From: an uncultured Planctomycetota bacterium
GTDB taxonomy: Bacteria; Planctomycetota; Planctomycetia; Isosphaerales; Isosphaeraceae
Direction of reading: 5' to 3'
Length of the DNA: 64,000 nt
Assembly (NCBI GenBank): GCA_963823665.1
Contig: CAWGMQ010000010.1
Location: 2,144,001-2,208,000, forward strand
Positions 1,632 to 43,595 of this stretch are shown here, piece after piece. Each line of letters opens with the position of its first letter. Within the stretch, counting starts at the first letter, position 1. A program made the position numbers and the translations under genes. Under the pieces are notes generated by a model that saw only the letters and a list, made by a program, of their open reading frames with translations, was not told the DNA's origin and did no database searches.

Positions 1632-1793
1632 GACACTGTGTGCGCCTGCTCCACTCGATCTCGTCGATCACGCGTGCATGCTGACTGAGACCGAGCCTGG
1701 TTTGGCGAGGCTCACTCGAGAGCAAAACAGGCGCGTTGTTACGCCGCACGGAACACCTTCAGCGCGAGCCAGGGCCCGCCGGGAGGAGATGGA

Positions 1794-3144
1794 ATGATTC
1801 CACTGCACCGAGACGAGCCGCGGATCAACTTACCGTTGCCGGGGCCTCGCAGCGCGGGGTGGCTCGAGCGCGACCAGCGCGTCATGTCGCCTTCCTATAC
1901 GCGCATGTATCCGCTGGTCGTCCGAAGGGCGAAGGGGGCGATGATCGAGGACATGGACGGGAACCGGTTCCTCGACTTCACTGCGGGCATCGCGGTGACG
2001 AATGTCGGTCATTCGCACCCGCGCGTGGTCGCCGCGATTCGTCGCCAGTCGCGCCGATTGATTCACATGTCGGGGACGGACTTCTATTACGTGCCACAGG
2101 TTCGCCTGGCCGAGCAGCTTGCGGCGCTGGCACCGGGGAATGAGCCCAAGCGGGTGTTTTTCACCAACAGCGGGGCCGAGGCGATCGAGGCGGCGCTCAA
2201 GCTGGCGCGGCGTCATACAGGGCGCAACTGCGCGCTAGCGTTCGTGAACGCCTTTCACGGCCGAACCTATGGCGCCATGTCGCTTTCCGGGTCGAAGCCG
2301 ATGCAGCGCCGGGGCTTCTCGCCGCTGGTGCCGGATATCCACCACGCGCGGTATGGCGACCTCGAGAGTGTGCGCGCTGTTGCGCACGATCTGTCCGGCC
2401 GAAGAGCTGGCGGCGATCTTTGTCGAGCCGATCCAGGGGGAGGGTGGCTACATCGTGCCGCCTCCTGAGTTCCTGCCCGGTCTGCGCGAGCTTTGTGATG
2501 AGCACGGCGTGCTGCTGGTCTTTGATGAAGTGCAAAGCGGCATGGGCCGCACGGGCAAGATGTTTGCCTCGGAGCACTGGGGGGTGGCGGGTGACATCGT
2601 GTGCCTGGCCAAAGGGATCGCGAACGGACTTCCGCTGGGAGCGATCGTGGCTCGCGCCTCGGTGATGGATTGGCCGAGCGGGAGCCATGCGTCAACTTTC
2701 GGCGGGAATCCCGTTGCGTGTGCGGCATCGCTGGCGACCGTGCAGCTTCTGGAGGGCCGGTACATCGCCAATGCGCGGCGGCGGGGCCGGCAGCTCAAGG
2801 ATGGGCTCGAGGATCTCGCCCGTCACTTTCCGTTCGTTCGCGAGGTGCGGGGGCTTGGCCTGATGATCGGACTGGAGATCCAATCCGAGAGCGGCGAGCC
2901 CGCTCCCGGCCTGCGGGATTGGCTGATTGATCTGGCATTTCATCACGGCCTGCTGCTTTTACCGTGCGGGCCAAGCACCATTCGGTTCTGCCCGCCGTTG
3001 TGCCTGACGCGGCGGCAGGTGGAGATCGGTCTGCGACTACTGGCGGTGGTGATGTCGGCTGCCGTCGAGGAAAATGCGCGGTCGAGGAACGGGATGAGTG
3101 ATCCGACGCAGGCCTGCGAGGATCTCGAACCCGAGCCGGCGTGA
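1794..3144 (+). CDS. Class-III PLP aminotransferase (GABA/acetylornithine/lysine aminotransferase family); apparent frameshift near 2370-2390
   Basis: ORF 1794..2468 has DMDGNRFLDFTAGIAVTNVGHSHP, FFTNSGAEAIEAALK and AFHGRT. ORF 2269..3144 has EPIQGEGG, FDEVQSGMGRTG, the PLP lysine in LAKGIANG, and STFGGNP. Confidence 0.92.
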
Positions 3145-6559: not shown

Positions 6560-8204
6560 GTGACCGTTGTGCCGGCAAAAACCGCGGCTCCTCAGCGCTC
6601 GAACGCCGACCTTCGCTCGCTTACGAGTGAGCTTCTCGTCCAGGCGGAGCAATTGCGTCAGGGAGGGGGCAGGGGGGCGATCGAGCGCCAGCACGCCAAG
6701 GGCGCAAAACGGCGCGTGAGCGGATCGCAGCGCTCTTCGATCCGGGTGCTCCCACGCTCGAGATCGGCCTCTGGGCGGGGTATCAAGTCTATGACGAATG
6801 GGGCGGCGCACCGGCGGCGGGGGTTGTCACGGTGATGGGATCGGTGGCCTCGCGGCGCGTGATGGTTGTCGCTAATGATGCGACGGTCAAGGCTGGTGCG
6901 TGCTTCCCGATGACGATCAAGAAGATCCTGCGCGCCCAGTCGATCGCCGCCCAGAACCGGCTTCCGCTCGTCTACCTCGTCGACTCTTCGGGAGTGTTTC
7001 TGCCGATGCAGGACGAAGTCTTTCCGGATGAGGACGACTTCGGCCGCATCTTTCGCAACAATGCCGTGCTGTCGGGGCAGGGGATTCCCCAGTACGCTGC
7101 GATCATGGGGAACTGCGTGGCGGGCGGAGCCTATCTGCCGGTGCTTTGCGACACGGTGCTCATGACGGAGGGATCAGGCTTGTATCTGGCCGGCCCGGCG
7201 CTGGTGAAAGCGGCGATCGGCCAGGAAATCTCGCACGACGAGCTGGGCGGCGCGCGGTGCATTCGGCGATCAGCGGCACGATCGACTATCACGAGAAGGA
7301 TGACGACACGTGCTTGGCGCGGCTGCGCCGGCTGATCGGTCTCTTGCCGCCGGACCCGATTCCGCCGGTGGCGGCAGCCACGATCGAGCCGCCGGGCCGG
7401 CCCGCCGAGGATCTCTATGACCTGGTGCGCTCTGATCCTTCGGCCCAGTATGACGTGCGCGAGCTGCTTCGCGCGATCCTGGACGGCGGCCGGCTCGACG
7501 AATATCGGGCTGAGTATGGCCGAACGCTCGTCTGCGGCTTCGGCGCAGCTCGGCGGAAATGCGCTGGGAATCGTCGCGAGCCAGCGACTGAGGTTTCGGC
7601 CCGAGGGAGGCGGCCCGATCCAGTTCGGCGGCGTGATCTATGCTGACAGCGCCGACAAGGCCGCACGGTTCGTGCTCGAGTGCAATCAGACGCGGGTGCC
7701 GATCCTTTTTATCCAGGACGTGAACGGGTTCGACGTCGGCCGCGATGCCGAGCGCACCGGCATCATTCGCCGGGCGCAAAGCTCGTGAGTGCGGTGAGCA
7801 ACAGCAGGGTGCCCAAGATCACGTTGATTGTGGGCCATTCGTTCGGTGCAGGCCACTACGCGCTCTGCGGCAAGGCGTTCGATCCCCGGTTCATCTTCGC
7901 CTGGCCGGGCGCACGCTATGCGGTGATGGGTGCACAGCAAGCCGCCCGCACGATGCTGGATGTGAACGTGGCGGCGCTCAAGCGCGAGAAGAAAGAGATC
8001 GACGACCGCGAGCAAGCAGCGATGGCCGAGCAATTGCGGCAGCGCTACGACCGCGAGACCGACATTCGCTACGCCGCGGCGCGGCTGTGGATCGACGCGA
8101 TCATCGACCCGGCGCAGACGCGTGAGGTGCTCTCGCTGGCGCTTGACACCGCCGTGAGACAACGCGAGCTCGAGCCGATTACCACGGGAGTGTTTCAGGT
8201 GTGA
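6560..8204 (+). CDS. Acyl-CoA carboxylase carboxyltransferase (beta) subunit, MccB/AtuC-like; several frameshifts
   Basis: Successive frames give GGGRGAIERQHAKG, VANDATVKAGA, LVDSSGVFLPMQDEVFPD, GNCVAGGAY, QFGGVIYADSADKAARF, QDVNGF, SFGAGHYALCG, YAAARLWIDAIIDP and GVFQV. Confidence 0.9.
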
Positions 8205-26420: not shown

Positions 26421-28433
26421 TCACGGCCCACGCACGTCCTGCGGCGCCATCCCTTCCCCCGCCGCCCCACCCGCACCGGCCCCAGCGTTCATTCCCCCGG
26501 CATTCAACCTCGCCAATCGCTCCCGCGCCTCCTTCTCCGCACGTTGACGAATCCACTCCCGCCGCCTGATTTCCTTCCACGCGTCCCGTCGCTCGTAGTC
26601 CGTCAAGGCACGTGCAACCGGCTGTGTTGTCGAACCTCCACTTCCACCCGCCTCCGCACCCCCCACCGGAATTGGCTTCGTTTGCAAAATTGGCTTCGTT
26701 TGACAATCGTCAAGTCCCGAAACACCGCCGGAATTCGTCGGAACTTCAATAATATCTTCATGTTGTGCTATGCACGCGTCATCACAAAAATTGGCTTCGT
26801 TCGGCGCTTTTTCACCGATTTGACTCTCGTCGCCGCCGGCGGCAACCTCTTCTTCCCGCCCTCGATCAGCAGCTTCCGCCAGTTGCTCTTGAGTGACTTC
26901 GCTCGCACCTCCCGCATTCAGTTCGATGTCGCACCGCTCGGCTTCCTCCGATTCTGCACCCACCGTTTTCGAGTTCGGTACTTCATCTTCCAGGGCAGCC
27001 CCAGGCGCCGACTCGCCGTCGCCGTCGCCCGCAGCGCCAACGTACTTCTCAGGAAGATACCCACCACACGCCAGAACGTCCGATTCCTCGACCACAACCG
27101 ACTCCCACCCCCGCCCCTTCTCATTCGAAGTAGCAGGCACACTCCGTGTGCCGTCTGCCTGAGGCTCACGGCCAATCTCAACCGCCGCGCCCGAACCACT
27201 ACCCGCGAGTGGCCCGCCGCTCCCACAGTCACCCGAATCCGCCTCCCCATCCGCGTGTTGGGCGCGAGTCTCCTGACCCCGCCCTCCCCGCGACCGCAGG
27301 TCTCCCTTCTTCCCACCCCCCACATTCTCCGCCCACCAGGCCGCCGGCCGCCCATCATATGGGCTGATAACATCTTTCCCAGGCACCGGCGGCAATCCCT
27401 GCGCATCGCTATCCGCCTTCCGCGCCCGTACCTCCTGCCGAATGACCTTGCCCCCCCGCTCCACCGACCCCTTGGCTCTCAAGAAGTATCGCCGCATCGC
27501 CTCAGCTTCCTTGGTATAAACAAATCCCTTGCGTCGCCTCGTCCGCGCAGGTTCATCCTTGATATGGGTGTCATGTTCCGCCGCAATGTCCCACACCCGC
27601 TCGATCTCGCCCTCCACCAGCTCGATCAGGCTCTGCCTGGCCTTCTCCTTTTCACCGCGCTGCGATAGGTCAGGCCACAACGCCACGACCGCCTTCACGT
27701 GGGCCTCGAGCATCAGCTCGTTCATATCGCTGAGCAGATCGTCAAACGGTTTGCCCATCGGCCGAAGCGCGTGGCTCGCCGCGAAAACCTCAGCGACCCG
27801 CCGGTCTGCGGGGCCGTCCACAGGATTCCGCCCCAGCAACCGTAGCATCATCAGCCGATCGCCGGAGGACCAAAAACGTTTGCGAGCCCGTTCCAGCAGT
27901 TCCTCAAGAACCTCAAGGATCCAGTAGCACCCCATCGCGCTCGATTCCAGTTTGCGCATGAGTTCGTCGGGCTTGATTGCCGGCGCAGTTTCGCTACCCC
28001 ATGACGGCCCCCCTGGTTTCTTGTTGTTAAACCGACGGGTGCCGAACAGCGCAACCGGCACGCCTCGCGAATCGGTGAACAGCAGGTCGCCCGTTTCGCG
28101 CACCTCTTTGATCTCGTCGTCCTCGGCGTTGTCGATCTGGCTTTGAGTGAGTTCCAGATAAGCGCCCCTCACCCGATCCATGTCCGACGCCAGGAACAGG
28201 TTGGCATTCAATAGAAACTCCTCGGGGTCACTCTCCACCCCATAATGCGCGGACCAGCGAAAGTATCGCGCTTCATACGCAATGCTTTCCTCCCGCGCGA
28301 GCTTCTCCCGCTCCGCCCGAAGACCGTGCTTCCGACTATTTCGAGCGCTTTTTGCCCGGGTTTCTGGAGTTTTCGGCCCGGTGGAGCGCAACGCATTGCG
28401 CCGATTCGCATTGATTTGTGCGTCAGAGGCCAT
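26421..28433 (-). CDS. Hypothetical protein of the 'ANRRNAxxSTGPxT...KHG' family with a low-complexity C-terminus
   Basis: Begins MASDAQINANRRNALRSTGPKT...RNSRKHGLR. The 670-aa frame is open and ends in NEANF and QTKPI repeats. Confidence 0.75.
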   Translation of the reverse strand: MASDAQINANRRNALRSTGPKTPETRAKSARNSRKHGLRAEREKLAREESIAYEARYFRWSAHYGVESDPEEFLLNANLFLASDMDRVRGAYLELTQSQIDNAEDDEIKEVRETGDLLFTDSRGVPVALFGTRRFNNKKPGGPSWGSETAPAIKPDELMRKLESSAMGCYWILEVLEELLERARKRFWSSGDRLMMLRLLGRNPVDGPADRRVAEVFAASHALRPMGKPFDDLLSDMNELMLEAHVKAVVALWPDLSQRGEKEKARQSLIELVEGEIERVWDIAAEHDTHIKDEPARTRRRKGFVYTKEAEAMRRYFLRAKGSVERGGKVIRQEVRARKADSDAQGLPPVPGKDVISPYDGRPAAWWAENVGGGKKGDLRSRGGRGQETRAQHADGEADSGDCGSGGPLAGSGSGAAVEIGREPQADGTRSVPATSNEKGRGWESVVVEESDVLACGGYLPEKYVGAAGDGDGESAPGAALEDEVPNSKTVGAESEEAERCDIELNAGGASEVTQEQLAEAADRGREEEVAAGGDESQIGEKAPNEANFCDDACIAQHEDIIEVPTNSGGVSGLDDCQTKPILQTKPIPVGGAEAGGSGGSTTQPVARALTDYERRDAWKEIRRREWIRQRAEKEARERLARLNAGGMNAGAGAGGAAGEGMAPQDVRGP
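26670..26802. repeat. Three copies of AATTGGCTTCGTT inside the orphan gene
   Basis: Copies at 26670-26684, 26688-26702 and 26789-26802. Confidence 0.85.
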
Positions 28434-28807: not shown

Positions 28808-29910
28808 ATGACGGCGACCAGGATCAACGGGCTCCATTGGAAGATGATCACCGACGCGATCCGCGCCGGAACCTGCGTCCCCTTTCTGGCGCCGCCGTCA
28901 ATGTCAAGAGCCGTACCAAGGGCTACGAATACAAAGGACTGCCCCTGGGGGCCGACGTCGCTCTCCGCCTGCTGAAGGAGCTGCTCGACGACGGTTTCGA
29001 AGGCGTCGCGGTCGAAGAGCTTCAACATTACGCTGGAGCTGCCCGGGCTGGCTGGCGATTGCTTGAAAAGATCCTGGGCGACGAGGTCCCCGGACTCGAT
29101 GGCCAAGCCATCAAGGCACGGCTTGCTGGACAGCCGGAATACGCCCAGCTATTGGCCTACGAGAAGGTCGAGCTGGCTGGGCTCGACGACGACCTCAAGC
29201 GCGTCGCGATCGTGAATCTGCCCCGCGTAGCCCTGCACTTTGGACTGAAAGCGAAGTGGGACTACACCTTCATCAAGCAACAGCTTGAGTCCATCCTGAT
29301 GGAAGAGGAGGCCGATCCTTCGAAGCTCCTCTCGACCCTCGCCGCTCTGCCGCTGCGAATGATCGTCACCACAAACTTCGACCGCCTGATGGAGAAAGCG
29401 CTCGACGCAGCGGGCATCACCTATCGGGTCGTCGTCCAGCCGATTGAGGGCTTCAACACCTCCAGCGGCCGCAAGCAGGTCACTGAGCTGGCAAAGTCGG
29501 ACGGCCTGATCCTCTACAAATTCCACGGCGAGTTCGGCGACAAGGCCACCGGATCGCCTACGGGCGGCGGACCCTCCTCGCCTCGGATCATCCTGACCGA
29601 GGAAGACTACATCGAATTCCTCAGTGTCCTGGGTAAAGATGGCGCCGTCCCCAACTTGATCACGGAGCGGCTGGCGGACAACACCCTGCTCTTCCTCGGC
29701 TACAGCCTCGAGGACTGGGATTTCCGCACGATGCACAAGATCCTGATCGACCGCCTGGTCAAACACAGCCAGCGCACCTCGTTCGCGATCCAGAAGGACC
29801 CGCCGGAGTTCTGGGTGCGCTACTGGGAGTCCAAGAAGGTCCTGATCTACAACGTCGACCTCTACGAGTTCGCGGACCAATTGAAGGAACGCCTGGCGCG
29901 GGTCCGTTGA
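28808..29910 (+). CDS. Stand-alone SIR2-like (SIR2_2) protein, putative NADase; frameshift near 28890
   Basis: AIRAGTCVPFL[G]AAVN, IVTTNFDRLME, LYKFHG, IILTEEDY and LLFLGYSLEDWDFR. Confidence 0.88.
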
Positions 29911-29947
29911 CCATGATCGCGGCCCGAGAACGGGTTGGGGAGCCAGT

Positions 29948-32656
29948 ATGTCAGGCACAATGCCCTATCGATTTCTCGACTCCTACCAGCTTGGAGATGA
30001 AGCCCTCTACTTCGGCCGCAAACGCGAAACCCGCATCCTGTTGGCCGACATCGTGGCCAACCGGCTCGTCGTTCTGTTCGCCCGGACCGGTACCGGCAAG
30101 ACCTCTCTTATCAACGCCGGCGTCCGCCCGCTCCTGCACGAGCGCGGCTATGCGACGCTGCCTGTCCGCGTCCGAAAAGATCCGGTCGAATCCATCCTTT
30201 GGACGCTTCGCACGAGGGACGAAGGCCCCATCGTCCCGACCGGAGAAACCCTCTCCGCGCAGCTCGAGAGTGTCGCCGACCAGCTCGACCGGCCTGTTGT
30301 GTTCTTTCTCGACCAGTTCGAGGAGTTCTTCGTCTACCACCTCGGGCAGCAGCCCGAACAGGCGGCGAGCTTCATCGAGGAAATGGCGACCATCTGTGAG
30401 CGCACCGAGTCACGCGTCCACATCGTCATGTCGATGCGCGAAGAGTTTTTCGGTGGGATGGACGCCTTTCGAGACGCCATTCCAACGATCTTCCACAACG
30501 AATCAAACCTTCGGCTCCGATGGTTCGACCTCGAGCAGGCGCGCGAGGCAATCGAAGGCCCACCACGCGTCTTCGACGGAACAACTGTCGCCGAAGATCT
30601 CGTCCAGCGTTTGCTCGCCGACCTGGCGGAAGACGGTGCAGTCGAACCCGCCAAGCTTCAGATCGTTTGCGATTCGCTCTGGCGGGAGGAAGTGCGGCGC
30701 CGGACATCCCGGCCGGCCGGTCCGCTGACGCTTGACCACTACGAAGTGCTCGGCCGCGACCGCGGCAGGAGCCGGATCTTCGAGCACATCATCAACCGAC
30801 GGCTGGAAGACCAGTTCGCGCGGATCGACTCGGAGCAGCAGTTAAAGCTCCTGGAGCGGCTACTCCCTCGCCTCCGAACCCGACGGGGCACGAAGTACAT
30901 CTGGGACCTCGCGCTCCTCGCGAAAGTTCTCGAAACCGATGAAGGTTCGCTGGGCGAGCTGCTCGAGCGCTTGAGCGAGTCGCGCCTGGTGGCGCTGAGC
31001 GCAAAGAGTGAAGGAGGTGCCCAGCTCTTCGTGGAGCTCACGCACGACTACCTGGTCAATCGCCTGCCCGATCTCCGCCGTCGCGTCCGCCTCATCTGGC
31101 CTCGCCGCGTTCTGGAGTCGGCAATCGGAGACGGGGTTGATCGCTCGCCGCCCATCGACGAGCTCGCGTTGGCAACCATTCTTCAGCACGGAAAGCGGCT
31201 GAGCCTGACGGCCCCGCAGGCCGAGCTGCTCTTTCGCTCGGCCCTGCTGTACGGCGGAGGCAGGAGCGCGTCGTGCTTCCGGCTAGCCCGGGCCAGCGGC
31301 GTTGACGTCTGGGGGATCCTCGCCCAGAGCCTCGCATCCCCCGACTCCCGTGAGGCCATTCCCGCCCTGAACTTCCTGGCCCGAGTGCAAACGAAGAGAG
31401 CCTTCCGGATGCTTCAGCAGGCCTTGGGCCGCGATGAGCTGGCGAGGCACCTCAAGGAGACCTTCCTCCCGAAGCGATCGCTGGCGGTGGTCAACTTCCT
31501 CGAGGCACTGCTCGATCACCCGGGTCTCTCGTCCCGGGCCCGCTCTTGGCTGGAGCAATTCGCGAATGCCCCATCGAAGCTCGAGCCCGAGGTATCGGCT
31601 CGGGCCGCGACAGCCCTCTCCAGCCATGCTCCGCCCGGCGGTTCGCGTTCCACGTTCGAGCAGTCAACCGACGCGAGTGCACATCCGACCGCGCAGGCAG
31701 AGGACACAGCCGCCACGCGCACCGACCTCGGCTCCCGTCTGACCGGCATTTCCACGGCCATGACCAGAGGTCGTCTGGTCCTGATCTTAGGCGCCGGTAT
31801 CCACGCTGCGGGGAGGCCTGTCTCGGATACGTGGCACCCTGACAGCTCCAGGTTTTTCCCGCTCGAGTGCGAACTATCGGCCTATCTAGCCGCGAAGTTT
31901 GGTGCTCCCGACGAAATTCGCCACAATCTCGCGAGCGTCGCCCAGTACGTGGCCACAAATGCTGGAACGGGCCCGCTCTACGAAGAGTTGCAAGAGATAG
32001 TCGACCGCGACTATCAACCCACGATCGCTCATCGCTTCGTCTGCCAGCTCTCGGAGACAATCACCCGAAGAGTTTCCGATGATTCGAAACGGCTGGTTAT
32101 CGTGACCACCAACTTTGATGATCTCTTGGAGCGGACATTCGAGGCGCAGGCGCTCCCGTACCATCGAGTGTCCTACATCGTGGAAGGACGTGATTCTGGC
32201 CGATTTCTCCATCGTCCTTCCGGCGGCACTCCCACAGTCGTCCAAGAGCCGAATAGTTATCCCGGGCTGCTTCGCGACGCTTACCCGGTGGTCATTAAGC
32301 CCTTCGGCACGATCGATCGCGAAAGTACGAGAGGCGACGGATTCGTGATCACAGAAGACCAGCACTTCCGGCTCCTGACGGGGTCACCCCATTCGACATT
32401 GCTGCCGGTGCCGCTGCGACAAGAACTTCTTCGCAGCGGGACTCTCGCCTTGGGCCTCGCCCTGCGTGAATGGACCAGCCGAGCAAACTACTATCAAATT
32501 TGGGGCGATAAGAAACGGACCTTCCGATCCTGGGCCGTCCTGCACCGGCCGCGGGAGTTTGATAGGAGATATTGGCAAAACTACAACGTCGAGATCATCG
32601 ATGCCGATCTGCGCGACTGCATCGCCGAGTTGCAGGCCCAAATGGTGTCTAGCTAG
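29948..32656 (+). CDS. nSTAND1-type P-loop NTPase + helical repeats + C-terminal degenerate SIR2 domain
   Basis: PYRFLDSY...YFGR, Walker A ARTGTGKTS, Walker B FFLDQFEE, SMREEF, LQIVCDSLW and ELTHDYL. From about 31740: LVLILGAG, IVTTNFDDLLE, VIKPFG, VITEDQH and LALGLALREW. Confidence 0.88.
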   Translation: MSGTMPYRFLDSYQLGDEALYFGRKRETRILLADIVANRLVVLFARTGTGKTSLINAGVRPLLHERGYATLPVRVRKDPVESILWTLRTRDEGPIVPTGETLSAQLESVADQLDRPVVFFLDQFEEFFVYHLGQQPEQAASFIEEMATICERTESRVHIVMSMREEFFGGMDAFRDAIPTIFHNESNLRLRWFDLEQAREAIEGPPRVFDGTTVAEDLVQRLLADLAEDGAVEPAKLQIVCDSLWREEVRRRTSRPAGPLTLDHYEVLGRDRGRSRIFEHIINRRLEDQFARIDSEQQLKLLERLLPRLRTRRGTKYIWDLALLAKVLETDEGSLGELLERLSESRLVALSAKSEGGAQLFVELTHDYLVNRLPDLRRRVRLIWPRRVLESAIGDGVDRSPPIDELALATILQHGKRLSLTAPQAELLFRSALLYGGGRSASCFRLARASGVDVWGILAQSLASPDSREAIPALNFLARVQTKRAFRMLQQALGRDELARHLKETFLPKRSLAVVNFLEALLDHPGLSSRARSWLEQFANAPSKLEPEVSARAATALSSHAPPGGSRSTFEQSTDASAHPTAQAEDTAATRTDLGSRLTGISTAMTRGRLVLILGAGIHAAGRPVSDTWHPDSSRFFPLECELSAYLAAKFGAPDEIRHNLASVAQYVATNAGTGPLYEELQEIVDRDYQPTIAHRFVCQLSETITRRVSDDSKRLVIVTTNFDDLLERTFEAQALPYHRVSYIVEGRDSGRFLHRPSGGTPTVVQEPNSYPGLLRDAYPVVIKPFGTIDRESTRGDGFVITEDQHFRLLTGSPHSTLLPVPLRQELLRSGTLALGLALREWTSRANYYQIWGDKKRTFRSWAVLHRPREFDRRYWQNYNVEIIDADLRDCIAELQAQMVSS

Positions 32657-32683
32657 CCCTTCGGAAAGCGAGATTGATGGAAT

Positions 32684-33538
32684 ATGGCGCTCAGGACCTT
32701 CGCAGGAGCCGTCGCCATCGTCACCGGCGGCGCTTCGGGGATCGGCCGTGCGCTCGGAGAAGCGTTGGCACGGCACGGGGCAACGGTTCTCCTGGCCGAC
32801 CGGCAAGTCGATCTGGCCCGGCAAGTCGCCGCCGGGATCAGGGAGGGCGGCGGTCAAGCAACCGCCGAGGAACTCGATGTCACCGACTTCCCGGCAATGA
32901 ACCGGCTGGTCCAGAACACGTTCCAGGAGACCGGACGCCTCGACTATTTCTTCAATATCGCGGGGATCGGCATCGTGGGCGAGGCCCGCCACTACGAACT
33001 CGAAGACTGGTATCGCGTCCTGGACGTCAACCTCCGCGGCGTCGTGCATGGCGTGCACGCCGCGTATCCGATCATGCTCCGCCAAGGGTTCGGGCATATC
33101 GTGAATATGGCCTCAGTCGCGGGCTTGTGGCCATCGCCGTTCGTCGTGAGCTATTGCGCCACGAAGCACGCGGTCGTTGGACTATCGACGTCCTTGCGCA
33201 TCGAGGCGGCGCCGGCCGGGGTTCGCGTCAGCGTCCTCTGTCCGGGGCCCGTTCGAACGCCGGCGCTCGCCGGCGAATCAAGGTTTGGCAAAGTGCTCCC
33301 ATCGATCCCTGCGGAGGTTCTCCAGAAGTTGGTCGAAAGCCAACATCCCATGCAGCCCGACCGTTTTGCCGCCCAGGCGCTGCGAGCCATAGCCAAGAAC
33401 CGGGCGATCATCGTCATCCCGTCCTGGTGGAAGATCGTATGGTGGCTCAACCGTTTGTCACCGAGTCTAGGGCTCTATCTGGGGCGGAAGTCGCTGGAGA
33501 TCGTGAACCGGGCGGTGGAACGGCTGCCTTCCGGTTGA
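32684..33538 (+). CDS. Short-chain dehydrogenase/reductase
   Basis: TGGASGIG, NIAGIG, NMASVAG and catalytic YCATK. Confidence 0.94.
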   Translation: MALRTFAGAVAIVTGGASGIGRALGEALARHGATVLLADRQVDLARQVAAGIREGGGQATAEELDVTDFPAMNRLVQNTFQETGRLDYFFNIAGIGIVGEARHYELEDWYRVLDVNLRGVVHGVHAAYPIMLRQGFGHIVNMASVAGLWPSPFVVSYCATKHAVVGLSTSLRIEAAPAGVRVSVLCPGPVRTPALAGESRFGKVLPSIPAEVLQKLVESQHPMQPDRFAAQALRAIAKNRAIIVIPSWWKIVWWLNRLSPSLGLYLGRKSLEIVNRAVERLPSG

Positions 33539-34435: not shown

Positions 34436-35110
34436 TCAGTTCTTGCGGGCGGCGAGTTTCCTCACGAACGCCGCATGCTCGGCCGACCGCAGGCCGCGTC
34501 CCAGAGTCTGCAAGAGGCGGGCCACATCGTACTTCCAGAGCGCCGGCCCATCGAGCCACAGGCCAGGAAAGACTCGGGACCGAAAACCGCCCTTGGACGT
34601 CGGCTGGCACAATTCGTATACGCCCTTGACCAGGCGATGCCAGCGGATCTCCTCTTCCGCCATGAGAATCGCCACGTATTCACGCACTCCCGCCCTCTGA
34701 TAGAGCGCCTTCTTCACACCCAGATCATAAGAAGCGCTCGTAAAACAAATCTCCGCAGCGAGCTCCGGCGCCCCTACGTGATATTTCCCTTGAATCGCCG
34801 ATTGTCCGCCATATTCAGGACGGATCCAAAGATAAGAATCAGGCTGCGGCGCACTCTGAAGCATGAGCCACGTTGACTGGGTGCCCGCATCGCAACTCGG
34901 CGTACTTGCGATGTACGTTCCAAGCCACACGTCGATTCGAATCTCGGCGCGCCCGTGGGCGCTGGTTTGCGGTGAGGGCAAGTAAACCACCCCGTCGATC
35001 AGCTCCGCGAACTTGAGTTCCGGCATCGCCTCCCACCGGAGAAGGAATTCCTGCACCGTCATTCGTTGTCCCGCGCGAAGTGGTGTGATTGCGCGTTCGG
35101 CGATTGACAT
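34436..35110 (-). CDS. Uma2 (DUF820) family endonuclease-like protein
   Basis: AELIDGVVYLPSP, PQPD, GAPELAAEI, YDLGVKKALYQRAGVREY and SRVFPGLWLD. Confidence 0.92.
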   Translation of the reverse strand: MSIAERAITPLRAGQRMTVQEFLLRWEAMPELKFAELIDGVVYLPSPQTSAHGRAEIRIDVWLGTYIASTPSCDAGTQSTWLMLQSAPQPDSYLWIRPEYGGQSAIQGKYHVGAPELAAEICFTSASYDLGVKKALYQRAGVREYVAILMAEEEIRWHRLVKGVYELCQPTSKGGFRSRVFPGLWLDGPALWKYDVARLLQTLGRGLRSAEHAAFVRKLAARKN

Positions 35111-35280
35111 GACCAGAGCCTCCAATGACGACGCTAACCCATTCTACTTGGTCGCGGGTATCATCTCACGATTAAGGGCCAGGGCGCAGGAAAGTCCCTG
35201 GACATGCAACTGCGCCGCAGTCGAGTGGAGGCCATTGCTGCCGCCAGTTGCCCAGGGCGAGGGGCAAGGCAACCGTGTGG

Positions 35281-35887: not shown

Positions 35888-38800
35888 TCATCGAATCACA
35901 TGGACCGGTTTACGAGTCGCAAGGTTCTGTGCTTGGACGTCGCCGTGGATCACGTGAGAGCCGTGAGCGTCCTGCTTCAGCCCCGGCTTGACGACGACCT
36001 TGACGTGAAGAACGGAATGCCCCCGCCCGGCGATCGATCGTTGGACTTTGAATGCCGAATCCCGGCTGCTGACCGGCGGTATATGTTTGGGCAAGACCAC
36101 GTTCTTCCAGTTCAAGATCGTGTGGTAATTGCTTCCCGGTACTCCCGTGTTCTTGCCGTCGAGCAGGAGACCCTGCGAATCCGACACCCCGTTGGGACCA
36201 GCTCCGATAACCGTTAGCTTGTAATTGTGGTGGAGGTTCACCCGCCGGGCTGGGTGCAGAGTCACAGTCTGCGTCGTCGGGTCGTACACCGCCGACCGGA
36301 TCCGGTCGCGATGGCCACCTGGGCCGATGATGACATAATTGCTCACGTTCTGGGTCGTGGACGGATCGAGCGGCTGATCGAAACGGAGCACCAGCGTGGT
36401 TGGTTCCCAGTGAATCCCGTAACGCAAAACCTGAATAACCTGCGGCCCATCAGTGGCGGGAGGAGTGACGACTCCGGAGGTGACAGTTGCCGTGGCGGTG
36501 GCGACGATCGATCCGTTACTCAGCGATTTCACCTCCACGGTGACCGTGCCTTGCCCGATCGCGGCAAGATTCGTCTGGAGCAAGATCGTGCCGGTGGAAA
36601 GGCCAGGGATGCGGAAAAGAGGAACGGACTGTGTGGGAAGTCCGTCCAGACCGACCAGGTTCGCGGTGATCGGGCCGCTCGTGCTCACGATGAAGGCTGT
36701 GTAGAGGTCTTCGGTATTGCCGGTGTTGTTGACGACAAGAGTGAAAGTCGCGTTTCCGGGTGTGCCGAGATTCTCGGAGGACGGTGTCAGCGCCGCCGAA
36801 ACGCTCTGGGTCGAGGGAACGCTGAGACTCGCGGTGGCTTCGCCGTTGACGGCGCGATTGCCTTGCGAGACGGCCATCGCGGTCAGGTCGAGGTTTCCCG
36901 CCACCGCGAAGCTCGCCGATCCGGTGGTGATCGGTATGATCCGGGACGCGCCGGGGGCGAGAGCAATCTGGTTCGTGGCGAGGCTCGCGACCAACGCGCC
37001 GGGACCGATGAGCGACAGGTTGTAGGTATCCGACACGCTTCCGGTGTTGGTGACCGTCAACTGGAATCCGCTCCCTGTCGCCCCGGACGGCGGGTTCAGC
37101 GACACGACGACTCCTTGCGACGTCACCTGGAGCGTCCCCGTCGCCGAATCGCTCGCGGTGGAGTTGGTCGTCGAGGCCACGCTGATCGTGAACGGATAAT
37201 CCGCCGCCCCGGTTCCTTGGCCCGGCGTGAGGGCAGGCGTCACGTCACGGAAGTTGCTCGCTCCAGGCGGGACTTCCACAGTGGTTTGTCCGAGAGACGC
37301 AGCGATCGACGCGGGCAATCCGCTCGTCGCGACCGTGAATTCGTCTTCCGCGCTTCCCGTGTTGGTAACCTGGATGACATAGTAGGCGGCTGTGCCCGGT
37401 CCCGCGATGCGCCTGTGAGGGAACAACCGTTACCACCACGCCATGCGATTGCGTGTCGGGAGCCACGGGCTGTCCCTGAAGAATGAGATCGCCCAGCACC
37501 GAGGCCGAGGCGCCATTGTCGCCACTTGCCAGCACGGTGAACCCTTCGTCATCCGGAACCGCGGCGGAGTTTGATGTGAGAGTCAGTGGCACGTTCGCCG
37601 ATCCGTTCGCCGGGATCGTGATCGAAGAGGCCATGTCTACCCACTCGGTCGGAATACCCTGCACCGAGAGGGTATACGTCACGGGACTGGCTGAGGGATT
37701 GGTGAGGTTGACGGTATAAGCCGCCGGCGCTCCAGGCGCAACAGTCTGCGTCGTCGGGCTCAGGCCGATGATCTGGTCACCCACGACGTACTGGTCGGGA
37801 AGGTTCAACGTGGCGGATGTGCCCTGGCTGGTAAAAGCCACCGATGCGGCCTGCGCAACGGGGACCGACTGGCCAGGCTGCAAGCCGGTGACAGTCTCGC
37901 CGAACTGGATCGCCTGGCTCACGCTCGCTCCGGAAAGTGTCAGGTCCCAGGTGAGCGTCTCGGACGTGGTGCCCGTCGTGATGTTTGTCGGGGCGATGCT
38001 AAAGCTATTCGGGTCGACTGCCACACCGTTGTTCGTGGGGACCGTGATCGTGGCAGTCACTGGAACGGCTTGCGATGTTCCGATGTTGTAGATCGTAAGA
38101 TTCGAGCCATCTGTCACCAACAACTGGTTCGCGGCGACGGCAAAATCATCCAGGTAATCGGGGACCGTGTTCGGGACCGCGATCGGAGTCACCACGACAT
38201 TGTTCGAGTCACTCGCGTCGAACAGCAGCAATTGGGGCGAGCCGTTGGCACCCGCCGTACTCGTCGTGACGTACAGGCCATTTCCCAGACTGGAAACGTA
38301 GCCCATGCCGACCGAGGGAATGTTCAAAGTCTGCGTCGAAACGATTGTGGGGCTTTGCGGGTTGGTCAGGTCAAGCGTGGCCACGACGACGTCGCCTCCG
38401 AGCCCCGAATAGGCAGTCTGGAAAGTCTCCGACGAGCCGATCACGAATGCCTGGTTTCCCTGGACCGAGATGCCGGTTACCACTCCCATGCCGGGGATCG
38501 CCAGCTTCTCCAGGACCGTGGGACTTGCGGGATTGCTCGTGTCGACCACCATCACGAGTCCCTGGACGTCCGACCCGACATCGGTGCCGCTGGCTGTCGT
38601 GGTTCCGACCAGCAAAACGTTGTTGCCCGCGGGCGCGAGTTGCCAGAAGTTGGAGGTTCCCTCGTTGGAGAAGTAATCCGAGGGGTTGGGTGGATTGTTG
38701 TAGATCACTCCATCCACCGTGGGTGACGCGGGGTTGGTGATATCGATGTCAAAGCTTTCCCCGTACTGTTCAAAAATCTCGCCGCTCGAAGTGAAGAACC

Positions 38801-41800
38801 GAGAATGGTGCGCCGTGGTGTAGACATGCCCGTTCGAGATCGTGAATCCCGCAAGGCTGTAATCATCAGTGGCCGATTGATACGCGATCGGGGTCTGGCC
38901 CAGAAGGGTTGGACTGGTGGGGTTGGCCAGCGAGTAGATCAAAAGAGTCGAGGGTGCGCCGCCGGGCTGCTGGGCGAGGACGACCAGCTCGTTGTTGTAG
39001 ACCTGGAGGGCGATAACCGACGCGCCGCCAAGATCGCCGGCGCCGAACGTCGAGAGGACGTTGGGCTGCGCGGGGTTTGAGATGTCCACGATGTCGATCC
39101 CGCTGCCGGCGCCAACGTAAGAATCCGTACCCAGGATTGCCACACCGCTCGCACCAGCGACCGGGGTCGTGCTCACCACGCCCAGTGGCGTGCCGCCCTG
39201 CGTGGTCTGGCTACTGATCTCCAGCGTCGTCGTCACGGTCCCGGTTCCGGCCGGGAGCGTGGCCGGGGTCGTGCTCAGGGTTGCCGTCACCGGGATGCCG
39301 ATCTCGAGCGTCCCGGTGCCGGTCGCGCCCGCGATCGGGTTGCCGGAAGCATCGGTTACGGTCACGTTGATCGTGTCGTCACCGATCGCGAAACCGGTCG
39401 TGTCGAAAGTGCCAAGGTCGACATTCGTGAGCGCGGTGAGAACCTGAAGCGCGGTTGTGACGGGTGTCGATGTGAAGAGAACACTTCCCGATGGGTCCGA
39501 GACCGTGTACGAGACCATGGCCTGTTGTTGTTCGTTGACGGCGTTGAGAATCTCCGCCGAGACGTCGACCTGGCCTCCCGGCTGCGTGAACGTCGGGCTG
39601 GGAGTGACCGACGCGACCTGCACGAGTGCGGCGCGAGAGATCAATGAGCCGGTGGTCGACTGGGTGAGCTCGGTCGCCCCATCGACCGTCGCGGTGACCT
39701 GGAAGCTGAATGGCGAGAGATTTGTTGTCGAGGAATTCGTGAGCGTGACGGTGACCTGCGGCACGCCCATCGTCCCCACGGTGTCCTGGCCGGGCTGAAG
39801 CGTGATCGAAGGCTGGGAGAACGAGGCTGTGACGCCGCCCGGCAGGCCGGTAATGCTCAGATCATAAGTCGTTGCCTGTGAGCCCGTGTTCTGCAAGTTG
39901 ATCTGGAACGTCGCGGGCGACAGCGGCGCTTCGACCTGGCTGTTCGTCAGGAGGGAAAGCGTGAAATTGTGCGCGGCTTCATCGGTCAAGATCGAGTCGA
40001 GCGAGTCCAGAGACGTGCCGAGCGTGCCGGCCGCGGCGAGCAGTTCGGTGGGCGTCGTCGCGCTTGCGATCGCGGCCCGAGCCGAAGCGAACTGGGGGAG
40101 CAATGACGTGAGGAAAGCATCGGCGCCGAGCAGGCCGGTCACGGCGTCCAGGCTGGCAAGCGTCTGGCTTTCGGCGACCGGATCGGCCGGGTTCTGAACC
40201 AGACTGGTGAGCGCCGTGCTGAGATCATCGAGCTGGGCGGCCAGCGCGGTGTTTCCGAACTGGGCGGCCGTCGCCGAGGCGTCGGCGATCGCACTGGCGC
40301 CCGGTACCTCGACGGCGACGGGGATCGTGAGCGTTTGCGTCAGCGGCGATCCGGAAGGACCGAAGGTCGCGGTCACCGTGGCGACAAGCTGGCTATTCAG
40401 TGGCGTCGACTCGGCCGGTGTAAAGGTGACCGTTTCGGTGGTCGACTGACCCGGTTGCAACGAGACGGGGCTCAGGCCGCTCAGGGCCAGACCCGACGAT
40501 TGGACCGATGTCAACGTCACGTTCGACTCGGTCACGTTACCGGTGTTGGTGATCGTCAAGGTGTCGGTGACCGGTGTCCCGGGAATGGCATTGAGCGACG
40601 TCGTACTGCCGGTGACGGTCACGGCATCAATGGAAGGAACGGTGAACGACTCGGTGGCCGAAGCGGTGTTGCTGGTGGTCGTCGCGCTGGTTGCGGTGAC
40701 GTCGAACGACACATTCGTGCCCGGCGCCGGGAGCGTGCCCGAGGGTTCGAGAACAAGCCCGACTTCGGCCGTCGCGCCGGGCTGGACGTCGATCTGCGAG
40801 ACGCTGGTCAGCGCCGTGAAGCCGGCCGGCACACTGGTGACGCTCAGGTTGTACTGGTCTTCAGTCGTCCCCTCGTTTTCGATGCCGACGCGGAACACAG
40901 TGGGAAGCTCCGCGCCGCCCGAGGGAAGGGTGAAGAGCGAGTCGGGGGCGACGGCCACGGCGAGGGAGCCAGGGCCGGAGAGACTTGCCAGGGCCGGGTC
41001 GGGCGGGGGCGAAACCAGGAAATCAGGGAGGGGCGGATCAAACAGGGTGGCGAGGCTACCGAGAGCTAGACCACCCCCAAGCCCGAACACGACTGCGCTC
41101 AGATAAAAAGCTCCTGGTATGAAGATAATTGCAACTCCGACAATGGCGAGAAGGGCCCCATATGCTGCATCGTTGAGCCCTTTCGTTCGGACGTACTTCT
41201 TGAACGCCGCCGGGTCGAAATATGATCTGTAGTCGAGATCAAGCTTCTCGATGCCGTAGAATACAACGCCCGAGACCAACGCGGTGACGCCGGCGACCGC
41301 GGCATACTCTGTAAGTCCCTGGTTCCCCCCGTCCTGGGTCACGCCGATGGTCTGCCCTGTGGTCGGGTCGATCTCGTACCAGGCGACAGTGGCCGCGCCA
41401 TTCACCAGCACGCTCTGGCTCGGCACGATCACGAGCTGACCCGCGTCGACTTCCGTCGTGATCTCGGCCTTGGCATCGGCCGAGATCGCGAGCGAACCAA
41501 GCACCGACAGGTTCGCCGCGGTGATGGCGACGATTGCGATCCCCTGCGATTGCGCCTGCTGGATGATGCTAGCCGAGTTGACGGGCGTCGGCTGGGTGCT
41601 ACCTGGCGCCGCGTTGAGCGTCAGGACCTGGGCCTCGGCCAGGTTCTCGAAGAGACCGTAATCCAGGTTGAACGCCACGATCGCGGCCGTGTTCTGGCCG
41701 GGATAGGCGATTGCCTCGATCGCATCGTTTCGCAGATCGATCGCAAAGGTGAGCGTCGGCGTGGTCGAACCGGCCGGGGTCGTGAGCACTCCTGAGGAGA

Positions 41801-43595
41801 TCACGACGCGCGGGCGGGCATAATACGCGGTGATCAGTCCTGCCTGCTCCAGACCCAGGAGCGAGATGTTCGAGGCGAAGAAGAAATCGTCGGCATTCAG
41901 CTCGGTTGTCAGCATGACATCACGTTGTGCGAGGGCTTCCTCGCCCGGATCGACATTCCCCGCCGCCTGATCGGCTGAGAGCTGCTGCTGAACCTGCGTC
42001 AGCTCGTTGATTATCGTGCCGACGGCCTGGGTCGCCACGGGGCCGGGCTGGACGTTGACCGTCCAGACAGACAGCGGCGAGACGCTCGGCCCGCCGGCGG
42101 GATTGATCGAAGTGGAAGAGCTTCCTCCATTCTGACGTGCCGCGTAGCCGATCGCGTCATAGAGCGCTCGCTCGTAAGACTGGGTCGGACCCTCTGGCCC
42201 GCTTTGATTGATGGTCAGGAAGAGCCCCGTCAGAACCTGGCTGCTAAAAGGAAGGGTCGTGAGCACCTCCTGAAAAGACGTGCCGCGGATCAGGTCCGAC
42301 TGGGTCGAGGGATAGGCGTCGTCGTTCTGAGCGATGAACGGCGAGTATGTGTTGGTAGTGGCCGAGGCAAACAGGGCCGAGACCGAGTTTGTGCTGACGA
42401 AGTTGCCGATCGAGAGCGGCCGTCCCACGAGGTCCACGTCATTGAATGTCTGGTCAAGGACGGTCGTGTCGGTCTGCCCTGACTGTCCAAAAAGGCTGCT
42501 GGCGGTGTTGGTGATCTCGGCGACGAGCTGGATCTCGGTCGTCTCGCGGAGGCTGTCGGGAACCTCGGCAAAGGTCGTGGACGCGGTGGTGAATGACTGC
42601 CCGGCCGTGGCGCCAGCGATCAACGGATCGGCGTCCTGCATGCCGCTGCCCGTATTGAACTGGAACCAGTAGTGATTCTCCGTTTCAGACAGCAGCTCGG
42701 GGTCGTTGGCGGGATCGGAGAGCGTGGCCCCAGCCGGGATGAGTCCCGAGATGCGATCGGGCTCCGGAAACATCGAAAGGATGAGCGATTGCGCCTGACT
42801 CTGCGACAGCGTGCCCCCGACATACTGGGCCGGTACGCCCGAGGCGCGCATCAGGGCGATGCCCAAGCTCGCGACGTCGAGCGAGTTGCCGGCGTCGGCC
42901 CAGAGCGTACCGCGGGCCCCTCGAACCGAGCCAATGTATGAGTTGTAGCCGATCTGCGTGTGCAGAAAGTCGAAGATCTGGGTCGGGTCGTAGTTGAGCT
43001 CCGCCGCCTCCTCCTGGATGAACGGGTCAGTGGTGTTGGCGTCGGGCGTGGAGGCCAGCAAGCTGGAGTCAACGTTGCCGGGACTGAGCACGGCCGCGGC
43101 AGTTGTATTCGAGACGGAGGCTCCATCGAGCGTGGCGACTGCTTGCGCGCCGGCATCGAGTTGCGTGGTCGAGGGCGCGGGCAGGTTGACAGTCAGCGTC
43201 ACGCTCGATCGCTCAAAGCCGGCAATCGTGCCCAGGTTCCACGCCAGCTTCTGCCCACTCTGGACAGGCGATTGCGAGTCACTGGCGATCGTCACGCCCG
43301 GTGCCAGGGTCGTCGTCAGCAATACACCGGTTTCGGGGTCCGCCTGCTCGTTGTAGACGGTGTATGTGATCGCGACTTGATTATTTTGCACCTCACCGAC
43401 GAAATACGAAGGTAAGGCAGGAGTAGTCGATGACGTTGGCTGCGGAACACTGAGCGTTCGCCCCACGACGATCGTCGACGGAAGGCCCGAGTCCAGCATC
43501 AAGCGATCTTCCAGCCGCTCGAACGATGTCCGATGCAGTCGCCGCAACATCGCCTCGCGATTCCCTTTGCGCTTCCTCGGCGCACGATATACCAT
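35888..43595 (-). CDS. Giant (~2,570 aa) exoprotein: planctomycete leader, transglutaminase-like domain, hydrophobic insert, Ig-like repeats, LVIVD-like propeller; frameshift near 37410
   Basis: FERLEDRLML leader; RGARGTLW..AGNSLDVASL..ALMRASGVPAQYVGG, HYW and DADP; repeated 'VTNTG..D.Y.L' Ig units; DI(S/T)NP.(S/Q)P repeats. ORFs 37245..43595 and 35888..37426. Confidence 0.85.

What the first reader, a model, noticed from the sequence alone, without database searches (positions are those of the whole stretch)
28808..32656. Candidate new defence system: active SIR2 plus STAND NTPase carrying a C-terminal pseudo-SIR2
Seen: gene A is a stand-alone SIR2 with intact TTNFD, KFHG (His codon 29524-29526) and GYS motifs. 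Gene B starts 37 nt later and has an N-terminal nSTAND1 NTPase, a helical region and a second SIR2 domain. In that domain KxHG is KPFG (32297-32308) and FLGYS is ALGLA. Established: SIR2 NADases are abortive-infection effectors in Thoeris, DSR, SIR2-HerA and Avs systems and need the conserved His and oligomerisation. Avs and NLR-like STANDs normally carry the effector N-terminally and TPR/WD40 sensors C-terminally. Here the order is reversed and no WD40/TPR array is visible. Inference: the dead SIR2 works as a homotypic adaptor that nucleates or restrains the free SIR2 when the STAND oligomerises, or as a decoy sensor for phage anti-SIR2 proteins or NAD metabolites.
Basis: partly seen in the sequence, partly recalled or inferred. 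Interest (0 to 1): 0.85.

Follow-up and report, generated by a model that had tools for sequence, protein, structure and literature searches.

The report
Candidate immune relay with dead sirtuin
A soil-type bacterium carries an NAD-destroying enzyme next to an immune-receptor-like ATPase whose tail is a probably inactive copy of a similar enzyme; related gene clusters suggest that the tail plugs the pair into a separate sensor protein, an untested two-step alarm resembling sensor-helper receptor pairs of plants and animals.

Summary
A (28808-29910) is a SIR2_2 sirtuin with intact motifs but a one-base frameshift at ~28888, probably an assembly error. B (29948-32656) is nSTAND1 + HEAT-like helices + a C-terminal SIR2-like domain with His→Phe.

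The pair is a real family: B-type STANDs follow A-type SIR2 in 27 of 27 other informative loci. A keeps its His in 119 of 119 relatives; B's tail keeps it in 33 of 128.

B's tail tracks C's STAND (Mantel rho 0.86), not B's own STAND (0.08), and is not A's kin. A fold of a homologous tail with C's STAND gave weak support (0.46, best control 0.00). This window lacks C, but the genome has a cognate sensor on another contig.

Best reading (~0.5): a sensor→helper→NADase relay, with the pseudo-SIR2 as a swappable plug for C. Main rival: integrated decoy (~0.2). No named system matched and no description was found in print. Defence activity is untested.

The parts
28808..29910 (+). Gene A: stand-alone SIR2_2 sirtuin (predicted NADase), about 367 aa in intact relatives; one-base frameshift at ~28888 in this assembly
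28808..28888 (+). 5' part of A in the other frame (N-terminal helix and first Rossmann strand, ...CVPFL), matching intact relatives P0222/P0223
29524..29526 (+). Catalytic His codon of A (KFHG)
   Evidence: His kept in 119 of 119 A-family proteins
29948..32656 (+). Gene B (902 aa): nSTAND1 NTPase, HEAT-like helices, flexible linker, SIR2-like tail; proposed helper STAND
29948..31100 (+). nSTAND1 module of B with Walker A (ARTGTGKTS, 30080-30106) and Walker B (VFFLDQFEE, 30299-30325); no N-terminal effector
31101..31627 (+). HEAT-like helical region of B (approximate bounds)
   Evidence: secondary structure; HEAT_2/HEAT_PBS in homologues
31637..31720 (+). Disordered linker (residues 564-591, pLDDT under 50)
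31721..32653 (+). C-terminal SIR2-like domain of B: GAG (31790) and TTNFD (32105) kept, His replaced by Phe in KPFG (32297-32308), FLGYS replaced by ALGLA
   Evidence: the nearest row in the tree, P0020/L193, also reads KPFG

Best explanation
A and B are the effector and helper halves of a two-tier STAND (NLR-like) immune relay. A separate effector-less nSTAND1 sensor C (WD40 or TPR repeats; next gene in half of the loci, elsewhere in the genome here) detects infection and oligomerises [inferred by analogy with Avs/NLR]. Its STAND module normally recruits a cognate stand-alone SIR2; B's tail is a captured, usually disarmed copy of that SIR2 and docks there instead [ancestry shown; docking weakly supported by a fold]. 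Engagement of the tail releases B's own STAND, which oligomerises and recruits the dedicated active sirtuin A [pairing shown; binding and activation inferred]. Clustered A depletes NAD+ and aborts infection [established for related SIR2 proteins; not tested here]. The tail is a swappable plug that sets which sensor clade feeds the conserved A+B output. In this genome the candidate input is the SIR2 + nSTAND1-WD40 locus at G000:C6:293943-296203.
For: Across 21 A/B pairs mean identity is 49% for A, 54% for B's STAND and 29% for B's tail. C follows B in 9 of 18 loci, and in those 9 only 1 tail keeps the His. Among the 9, tail identity tracks C's STAND (Mantel rho 0.86, p 0.0002), not B's STAND (0.08, p 0.28); clades match 5 of 5 and 4 of 4. 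The tail clade changes 8 times on a 120-row B-STAND tree, where 2 is the minimum. His-less SIR2 also joins other effectors to nSTAND1 genes: 3 of 31 X-SIR2 and 6 of 62 N-fused copies keep His; X is CHAT in 13 of 25 scanned, and otherwise caspase, trypsin, kinase, BTAD, DUF4062 or unassigned. In 196 His-less copies the NAD-contact residues erode (Asn 35%, Ala of GAG 20%) while core residues stay at 82-100%. Fold of the L034 tail with the L034 C STAND: weak support, 0.46 against best control 0.00; runs agree in at least 86% of contacts; partner pLDDT at least 86. That mark was reached by 116 of 157 solved and 2 of 215 mismatched pairs, but at 0.60 or under by only 18 of the 157 and by both mismatches. 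A clade-matched C-type STAND is in 4 of 5 B-bearing genomes searched, against 3 of 60 relatives of this genome that lack B.
Against: No experiment. C is absent next to B in 9 of 18 loci, including this window; genome G061 (L193) shows no cognate C (completeness not given). Where C lies in trans it already has its own His-intact SIR2, so a relay is not needed there and a decoy fits as well. The clade match is in effect two clusters of kin and shows cassette co-inheritance, not binding. The fold was on a homologue, with my own alignments, in the weak band, and may echo solved SIR2-STAND fusions such as Avs5. 33 of 128 tails keep His and 6 have Asn, an active variant in Avs5. A-to-B binding was not modelled; the one A-B fusion (P0170) is a truncated singleton that looks error-prone. 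Distance-matrix tests among the 21 A/B pairs were all weak (A vs STAND rho 0.20, p 0.055). The window is not a defence island, and A is frameshifted as assembled.
Confidence: 0.5

Rival explanations
1. Integrated decoy or guard: B's tail mimics the cell's other SIR2 effectors. A phage protein that binds or blocks them binds the tail, switches on B's STAND and fires A, a different sirtuin clade that escapes the inhibitor.
For: The tail sits in the C-terminal sensor slot, diverges fast (29% against 49% for A) and has been swapped repeatedly. In G000 and G062 it resembles resident His-intact SIR2 effectors (39% to the C6 SIR2). Other B-type STANDs carry Macro+TIR (P0055), TPR (L113) or WD40 (P0165) in that slot. 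G000 has 13 SIR2_2 matches.
Against: In 9 loci the tail stays beside its clade-matched sensor C, with no other SIR2 between them. His-less SIR2 is also fused to unrelated effectors upstream of nSTAND1, which suits a plug better than bait. The one anti-sirtuin whose paper I read, DSAD1, binds the sensor domain of DSR2, not its SIR2 (PMC10981675, passages). The two models can coexist.
Confidence: 0.22
2. Homotypic adaptor for A: B's tails, clustered by the STAND, nucleate or cap a filament of A; HEAT repeats do the sensing.
For: SIR2 NADases are switched by self-assembly (Avs5 PMC11897194, DSR2 PMC10981675; passages), and two paralogous SIR2_2 proteins cooperate in FAM118A/B (PMC12700824, passages). 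Tandem SIR2+SIR2+nSTAND1 loci, and pseudoSIR2-STAND beside pseudoSIR2-effector genes, exist.
Against: A and the tail are in different clades. Homotypic adaptor pairs of the EAD type are usually each other's closest kin (PMC7159879, passages). Tails of several clades serve one A clade. FAM118A/B need both active sites.
Confidence: 0.13
3. No relay: B's tail is a by-product of A+B inserting in front of, and fusing with, an ordinary SIR2+STAND pair. It is a second effector in some lineages and decays in others, and this window's locus may be a dying copy.
For: 33 of 128 tails keep His, and 16 of 130 keep GAG-type, Asn and His together. The window's tail has a long end branch (0.83); A is frameshifted and C is missing. 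A subfamily of about 800 aa has a barely recognisable tail.
Against: The fusion is kept across 128 proteins with tails near 29% identity and an intact fold core, arose or was exchanged several times, and the window's frameshift fits the assembly's indel background.
Confidence: 0.1
4. Metabolite sensor: the disarmed tail binds NAD+, ADP-ribose or a cyclic ADPR signal and gates the STAND.
For: The window's tail keeps GAG and TTN; the His is most often replaced by Tyr (37) or Phe (26); a Macro domain replaces the tail in P0055; His-mutant DSR2 still binds NAD+.
Against: Across His-less copies the pocket residues are not conserved (Asn 35%, Ala of GAG 20%).
Confidence: 0.05

Closest known systems
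Avs5 / SIR2-STAND (AVAST type 5)
   Same: SIR2 NADase controlled by a STAND ATPase; activation by assembly (PMC11897194, PMC12931631; passages).
   Different: Avs5 is one chain with N-terminal SIR2 and its own sensor. Here the effector is a separate gene, the STAND is nSTAND1, and a second, mostly His-less SIR2 is C-terminal.
nSTAND1 conflict systems and the EAD adaptor principle (Kaur et al. 2020 PMC7159879, 2021 PMC8195603; passages)
   Same: nSTAND1 core, swappable effectors (TIR, caspase/CHAT, trypsin, kinase), WD40/TPR/FGS sensors, coupling by adaptor domains.
   Different: The adaptor here is an enzyme-derived SIR2 fold that appears to pair with a STAND rather than with a copy of itself. 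SIR2 occurs 0 times in the 2020 text and once in the 2021 text.
Sensor-helper NLR pairs (plant helper NLRs: search listing only; NAIP-NLRC4: recalled)
   Same: One STAND senses, a second STAND relays to the effector.
   Different: Analogy only; eukaryotic AP-ATPase/NACHT clades, no pseudo-enzyme plug.
Thoeris ThsA, DSR2, SIR2-HerA, KomC
   Same: Same SIR2_2 fold and motifs; closest solved relatives of A and of B's tail.
   Different: No SLOG/Macro on A, no TIR ThsB, HerA or Kongming partner in the window; scores far below family level.
Human FAM118A/B (PMC12700824, passages)
   Same: Two SIR2_2 proteins acting together.
   Different: Both need intact active sites, and no STAND is involved.

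Membership tests
SIR2_2 antiphage-type sirtuin (gene A) | Pfam SIR2_2 over cut-off with GAx, TTNxD and HG motifs | tested here: met
   88.7 bits vs 24.5; motifs; the GAA motif lies at the frameshift
SIR2_2 antiphage-type sirtuin (gene A) | NADase activity upon activation | not testable with these tools
   needs an enzyme assay
nSTAND1 clade of STAND NTPases (gene B) | Pfam nSTAND1 over cut-off, Walker A and B, STAND fold | tested here: met
   150.7 bits vs 27.1
Avs5 / SIR2-STAND | SIR2 fused N-terminally to the STAND in one chain with a C-terminal sensor | tested here: not met
   A and B are separate ORFs 37 nt apart and separate in the other loci; no AVAST model among the PADLOC hits
Thoeris | ThsA with C-terminal SLOG or Macro plus a TIR ThsB | tested here: not met
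   ThsA models match the SIR2 part only (E 2e-14, 68-226 of 478); no TIR among window ORFs scanned
DSR1/DSR2 | Full-length match over the NCBIfam cut-off (1400 bits) | tested here: not met
   19.9 and 11.2 bits
SIR2-HerA | Adjacent HerA ATPase | tested here: not met
   the neighbour is nSTAND1; no HerA among window ORFs scanned
EAD-type homotypic adaptor pair (A with B's tail) | The two neighbouring copies are each other's close kin | tested here: not met
   A clade separate (100*), tail in other clades; 29% identity over the matched part
Pseudo-enzyme (B's tail) | Loss of catalytic residues and of activity | tested here: inconclusive
   His to Phe plus other losses, but GAG and TTN kept; activity not assayed; an Asn variant is active in Avs5
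Sensor-helper STAND pair | Helper is engaged by an activated sensor STAND | tested here: inconclusive
   co-inheritance and weak fold support on a homologue; no binding or genetic test
Any named DefenseFinder/PADLOC system | System-level rule match | not tested
   only PADLOC-DB 2.0.0 and NCBIfam profiles were scanned; neither program's system rules were run

The most novel reading that the evidence does not exclude
Bacteria run sensor-helper NLR-like networks in which a disarmed sirtuin fold is a general docking adaptor, like a CARD or PYD. It plugs effectors (CHAT/caspase, TIR, trypsin, kinase, or a whole second STAND with its own NADase) onto clade-matched nSTAND1 sensors, also in trans, so a newly acquired A+B module can be wired to sensors already in the genome.
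Probability: 0.4. Interest if true: 0.9.

Novelty: new variant of a known kind. Interest (0 to 1): 0.74.

Why it matters
The bacterial STAND defences in the papers I read are single-chain receptors with the effector built in. A STAND-to-STAND relay would be a bacterial counterpart of sensor-helper NLR wiring, and a sirtuin fold reused as a swappable adaptor would explain a large set of His-less 'SIR2 family proteins' beside nSTAND1 genes that would otherwise be read as NADases. The two clade-matched tail/sensor sets give a direct swap experiment.

Tried and rejected
Assembly artefact for the B fusion or for the missing C: rejected; 128 homologues carry the fusion, and two public contig pieces with 0 differences cross B's stop into the SDR gene (32480-32877 and 32562-32924). 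The frameshift site and the KPFG codons were not covered by those runs (shares of words 0.05-0.12), so they give no evidence either way. SDR gene as a member: not found after B in the loci whose downstream genes were scanned. Phage origin: no match for the tail in phage records or for A in viral contigs. Promoter/terminator and repeat scans: nothing above chance. ESM Atlas on the helical region: top score 0.78, uninformative. Mantel tests among 21 A/B pairs: inconclusive. Earlier scan notes: none returned. Not in print as far as searched: nSTAND1 + SIR2, 1 paper; 0; 1; 0 for pseudo-SIR2 terms; no SIR2 or nSTAND1 term in the 7 supplement files of PMC13581612, though its 589 clades are numbered and may include this family unlabelled. 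Most subscription papers and bioRxiv supplements, including the source tables of the NACHT preprint, were not visible. Rows dropped: 12 proteins with truncated, non-SIR2 or barely scoring tails (P0046, P0055, P0070, P0146, P0163, P0168, P0169, P0171, P0173, P0174, P0175, P0178) and domains under 200 aa were left out of the tree; duplicate loci were counted once; L118, L331 and L332 end too soon to score; L130 is a B fragment with no upstream SIR2 hit, the one exception seen. One A row (L034) shows no His through misalignment; it reads KLHG.
Full report
Observation. B folds confidently into a STAND module, a helical region, a disordered linker and a sirtuin Rossmann fold. A carries a one-base frameshift at ~28888 that cuts off its first strand. 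Two relatives at 85% and 77% identity are intact at 368 and 367 aa. Ordinary genes in the window show similar window-specific indels or are split across frames, so I read it as an assembly error (inference; not covered by reads). The host looks like a planctomycete from DUF1501/DUF1549/DUF1553 genes (that association is recalled). B was not found in 60 relatives searched; their matches cover only the SIR2 part. The neighbourhood is not a defence island.

A conserved pair. B belongs to a family found; 128 proteins with a scorable C-terminal SIR2 entered. A has 249 relatives at E<=1e-20, of which 120 were listed; all 119 other than itself keep the His (108 by pattern, 11 read from the printout). 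In 27 of 27 other loci where an A-type gene has downstream sequence, a B-type STAND follows; one B fragment (L130) had no upstream SIR2. Named hosts include Acidobacteriota, Anaerolineae, Actinomycetota and Verrucomicrobiota MAGs. A forms one clade (support 100*, FastTree).

The tail. 33 of 128 tails keep the His; replacements are mostly Tyr and Phe, and the state changes 24 times on the tree. So His loss is common and repeated, not fixed. Tails diverge far faster than A (29% against 49% mean identity in 21 pairs) and are scattered among stand-alone and effector-fused SIR2 clades; their clade changes 8 times on the B-STAND tree, against a minimum of 2. Caution: Asn can replace His in active Avs5 (PMC12931631, passages), and the window's tail keeps GAG and TTN, so 'dead' is likely but unproven.

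The missing third gene. In 9 of 18 loci with a full B and downstream sequence, the next gene is an effector-less nSTAND1, C: WD40 in L034 and L035, TPR in L314 and L326, no recognised repeat in L114, L318, L327 and L330, and broken in L325. A tenth, L316, has an nSTAND1-WD40 gene divergently upstream. Only 1 of the 9 tails keeps His. Tail similarity follows C's STAND (rho 0.86, p 0.0002), not B's own (0.08, p 0.28), with two clades matching 5 of 5 and 4 of 4; these are kin, so the effective sample is small. The same tail and STAND clades occur as ordinary SIR2 + nSTAND1 gene pairs (104 pairs, Mantel 0.44, p 0.001). The tail is therefore the cognate SIR2 of a sensor cassette onto which a STAND-HEAT module has been fused. 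The same slot is taken elsewhere by CHAT (13 of 25 scanned, out of 31), caspase, trypsin, kinase, BTAD or DUF4062 domains, and there only 3 of 31 keep His. In 196 His-less copies the pocket erodes while the core stays, which fits a binding module better than a ligand sensor.

Fold test. One job, on homologue L034: tail with C's STAND scored 0.46 against a best control of 0.00; runs agreed in at least 86% of contacts; partner pLDDT at least 86. The tool calls this weak support: the mark was reached by 116 of 157 solved and 2 of 215 mismatched pairs, but at 0.60 or under by only 18 of the 157 and by both mismatches; my own alignments were used, and likeness to solved SIR2-STAND fusions may contribute.

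This window. C is absent; an SDR gene follows, and public contigs confirm that junction. The genome has a clade-matched SIR2 + nSTAND1-WD40 pair on C6: its SIR2 is the best in-genome relative of the tail (39%), its STAND is 45% identical to L034's C, and matching pairs occur in G001 and G033. Clade-matched STANDs occur in 4 of 5 B-bearing genomes and 3 of 60 relatives without B; G061 has none, and genome size and kinship confound this. Because the in-trans sensors have their own His-intact SIR2, a guard or decoy role is as natural here as a relay.

Mechanism. Most likely (0.5): sensor C oligomerises, engages B's tail, B's STAND switches on and clusters A, and A depletes NAD+. Shown: domain content, pairing, tail ancestry and swapping. 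Weakly supported: tail-C docking. Inferred: sensing, order of steps, A-B binding, anti-phage role. Rivals: decoy 0.22, homotypic adaptor for A 0.13, neutral fusion or second effector 0.10, metabolite sensor 0.05.

Comparison and novelty. It works like Avs5 or an NLR but is not a member of Avs5, Thoeris, DSR or SIR2-HerA; system-level rules were not run. Papers seen: passages of PMC12931631, PMC10981675, PMC11897194, PMC12700824, PMC7159879, PMC8195603 and bioRxiv 2022.07.19.500537; abstract, one section and passages of PMC12803255; a term search of the supplements of PMC13581612; listings only for the plant helper-NLR reviews. None of what I saw describes this arrangement or a pseudo-SIR2 adaptor (searches); unseen subscription papers and supplements may. 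Verdict: a new variant of a known kind, interest 0.74.

Noticed in passing
G000:C6:293943-296203 (L002, L274): His-intact SIR2 followed by an effector-less nSTAND1-WD40; candidate in-trans sensor for B; matching pairs in G001 and G033.
   Followed up: partly
G000:C3:1269986-1272325 (L023, L276): Tandem SIR2 (His kept) + SIR2 (His-less) + nSTAND1-WD40; a similar SIR2+SIR2+STAND layout, with His in both SIR2, occurs in L255, L258, L259, L263 and L264.
   Followed up: partly
L055:9396-11747, L201:10033-12213, L176:5416-8184, L046:8294-9640: His-less SIR2 fused to TIR, TIR+PNP phosphorylase, CHAT or guanylate cyclase next to a His-less SIR2-nSTAND1 fusion: possible homotypic pseudo-SIR2 coupling.
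   Followed up: partly
L059, L058, L073, L091, L167, L173, L180, L192, L247, L158: A clade of CHAT(-TIR)-pseudoSIR2 genes directly upstream of nSTAND1; a candidate protease-effector system in its own right.
   Followed up: partly
P0055, P0165, L113:6590-9037: B-type STANDs with Macro+TIR, WD40 or TPR in place of the SIR2 tail; by eye P0165 seems to hold a second winged-helix segment, as if B and C had recombined.
   Followed up: partly
P0163, P0168, P0169, P0171, P0174, P0175, P0178: Subfamily of about 800 aa whose SIR2-like tail is degenerate below Pfam detection in the three scanned (P0163, P0168, P0169).
   Followed up: partly
window 26421-28433 (-): 670-aa ORF with no Pfam or NCBIfam hit; about ten similar copies (72-81% DNA identity) in same-genus genome G001, so probably a multicopy or mobile element just upstream of A.
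   Followed up: no
window ~20848, ~25150, ~33814; also 1689-3141 and 6631-8201: Frameshifts splitting ordinary genes (M1 aminopeptidase, aminotransferase, carboxyl transferase and others): the assembly is indel-prone.
   Followed up: partly
window 34436-35125 (-): Uma2 putative restriction-endonuclease gene 1.8 kb downstream of B; similar DNA occurs in G001, G030 and G033.
   Followed up: no
window 35888-43595 (-): Large Ig-like repeat protein with a transglutaminase-like core, split in two frames; 91% DNA identity to G001.
   Followed up: no
G000 whole genome: 37 nSTAND1 matches (33 over cut-off) and 13 SIR2_2 matches in one 16.5-Mb genome: a large NLR-like repertoire.
   Followed up: partly
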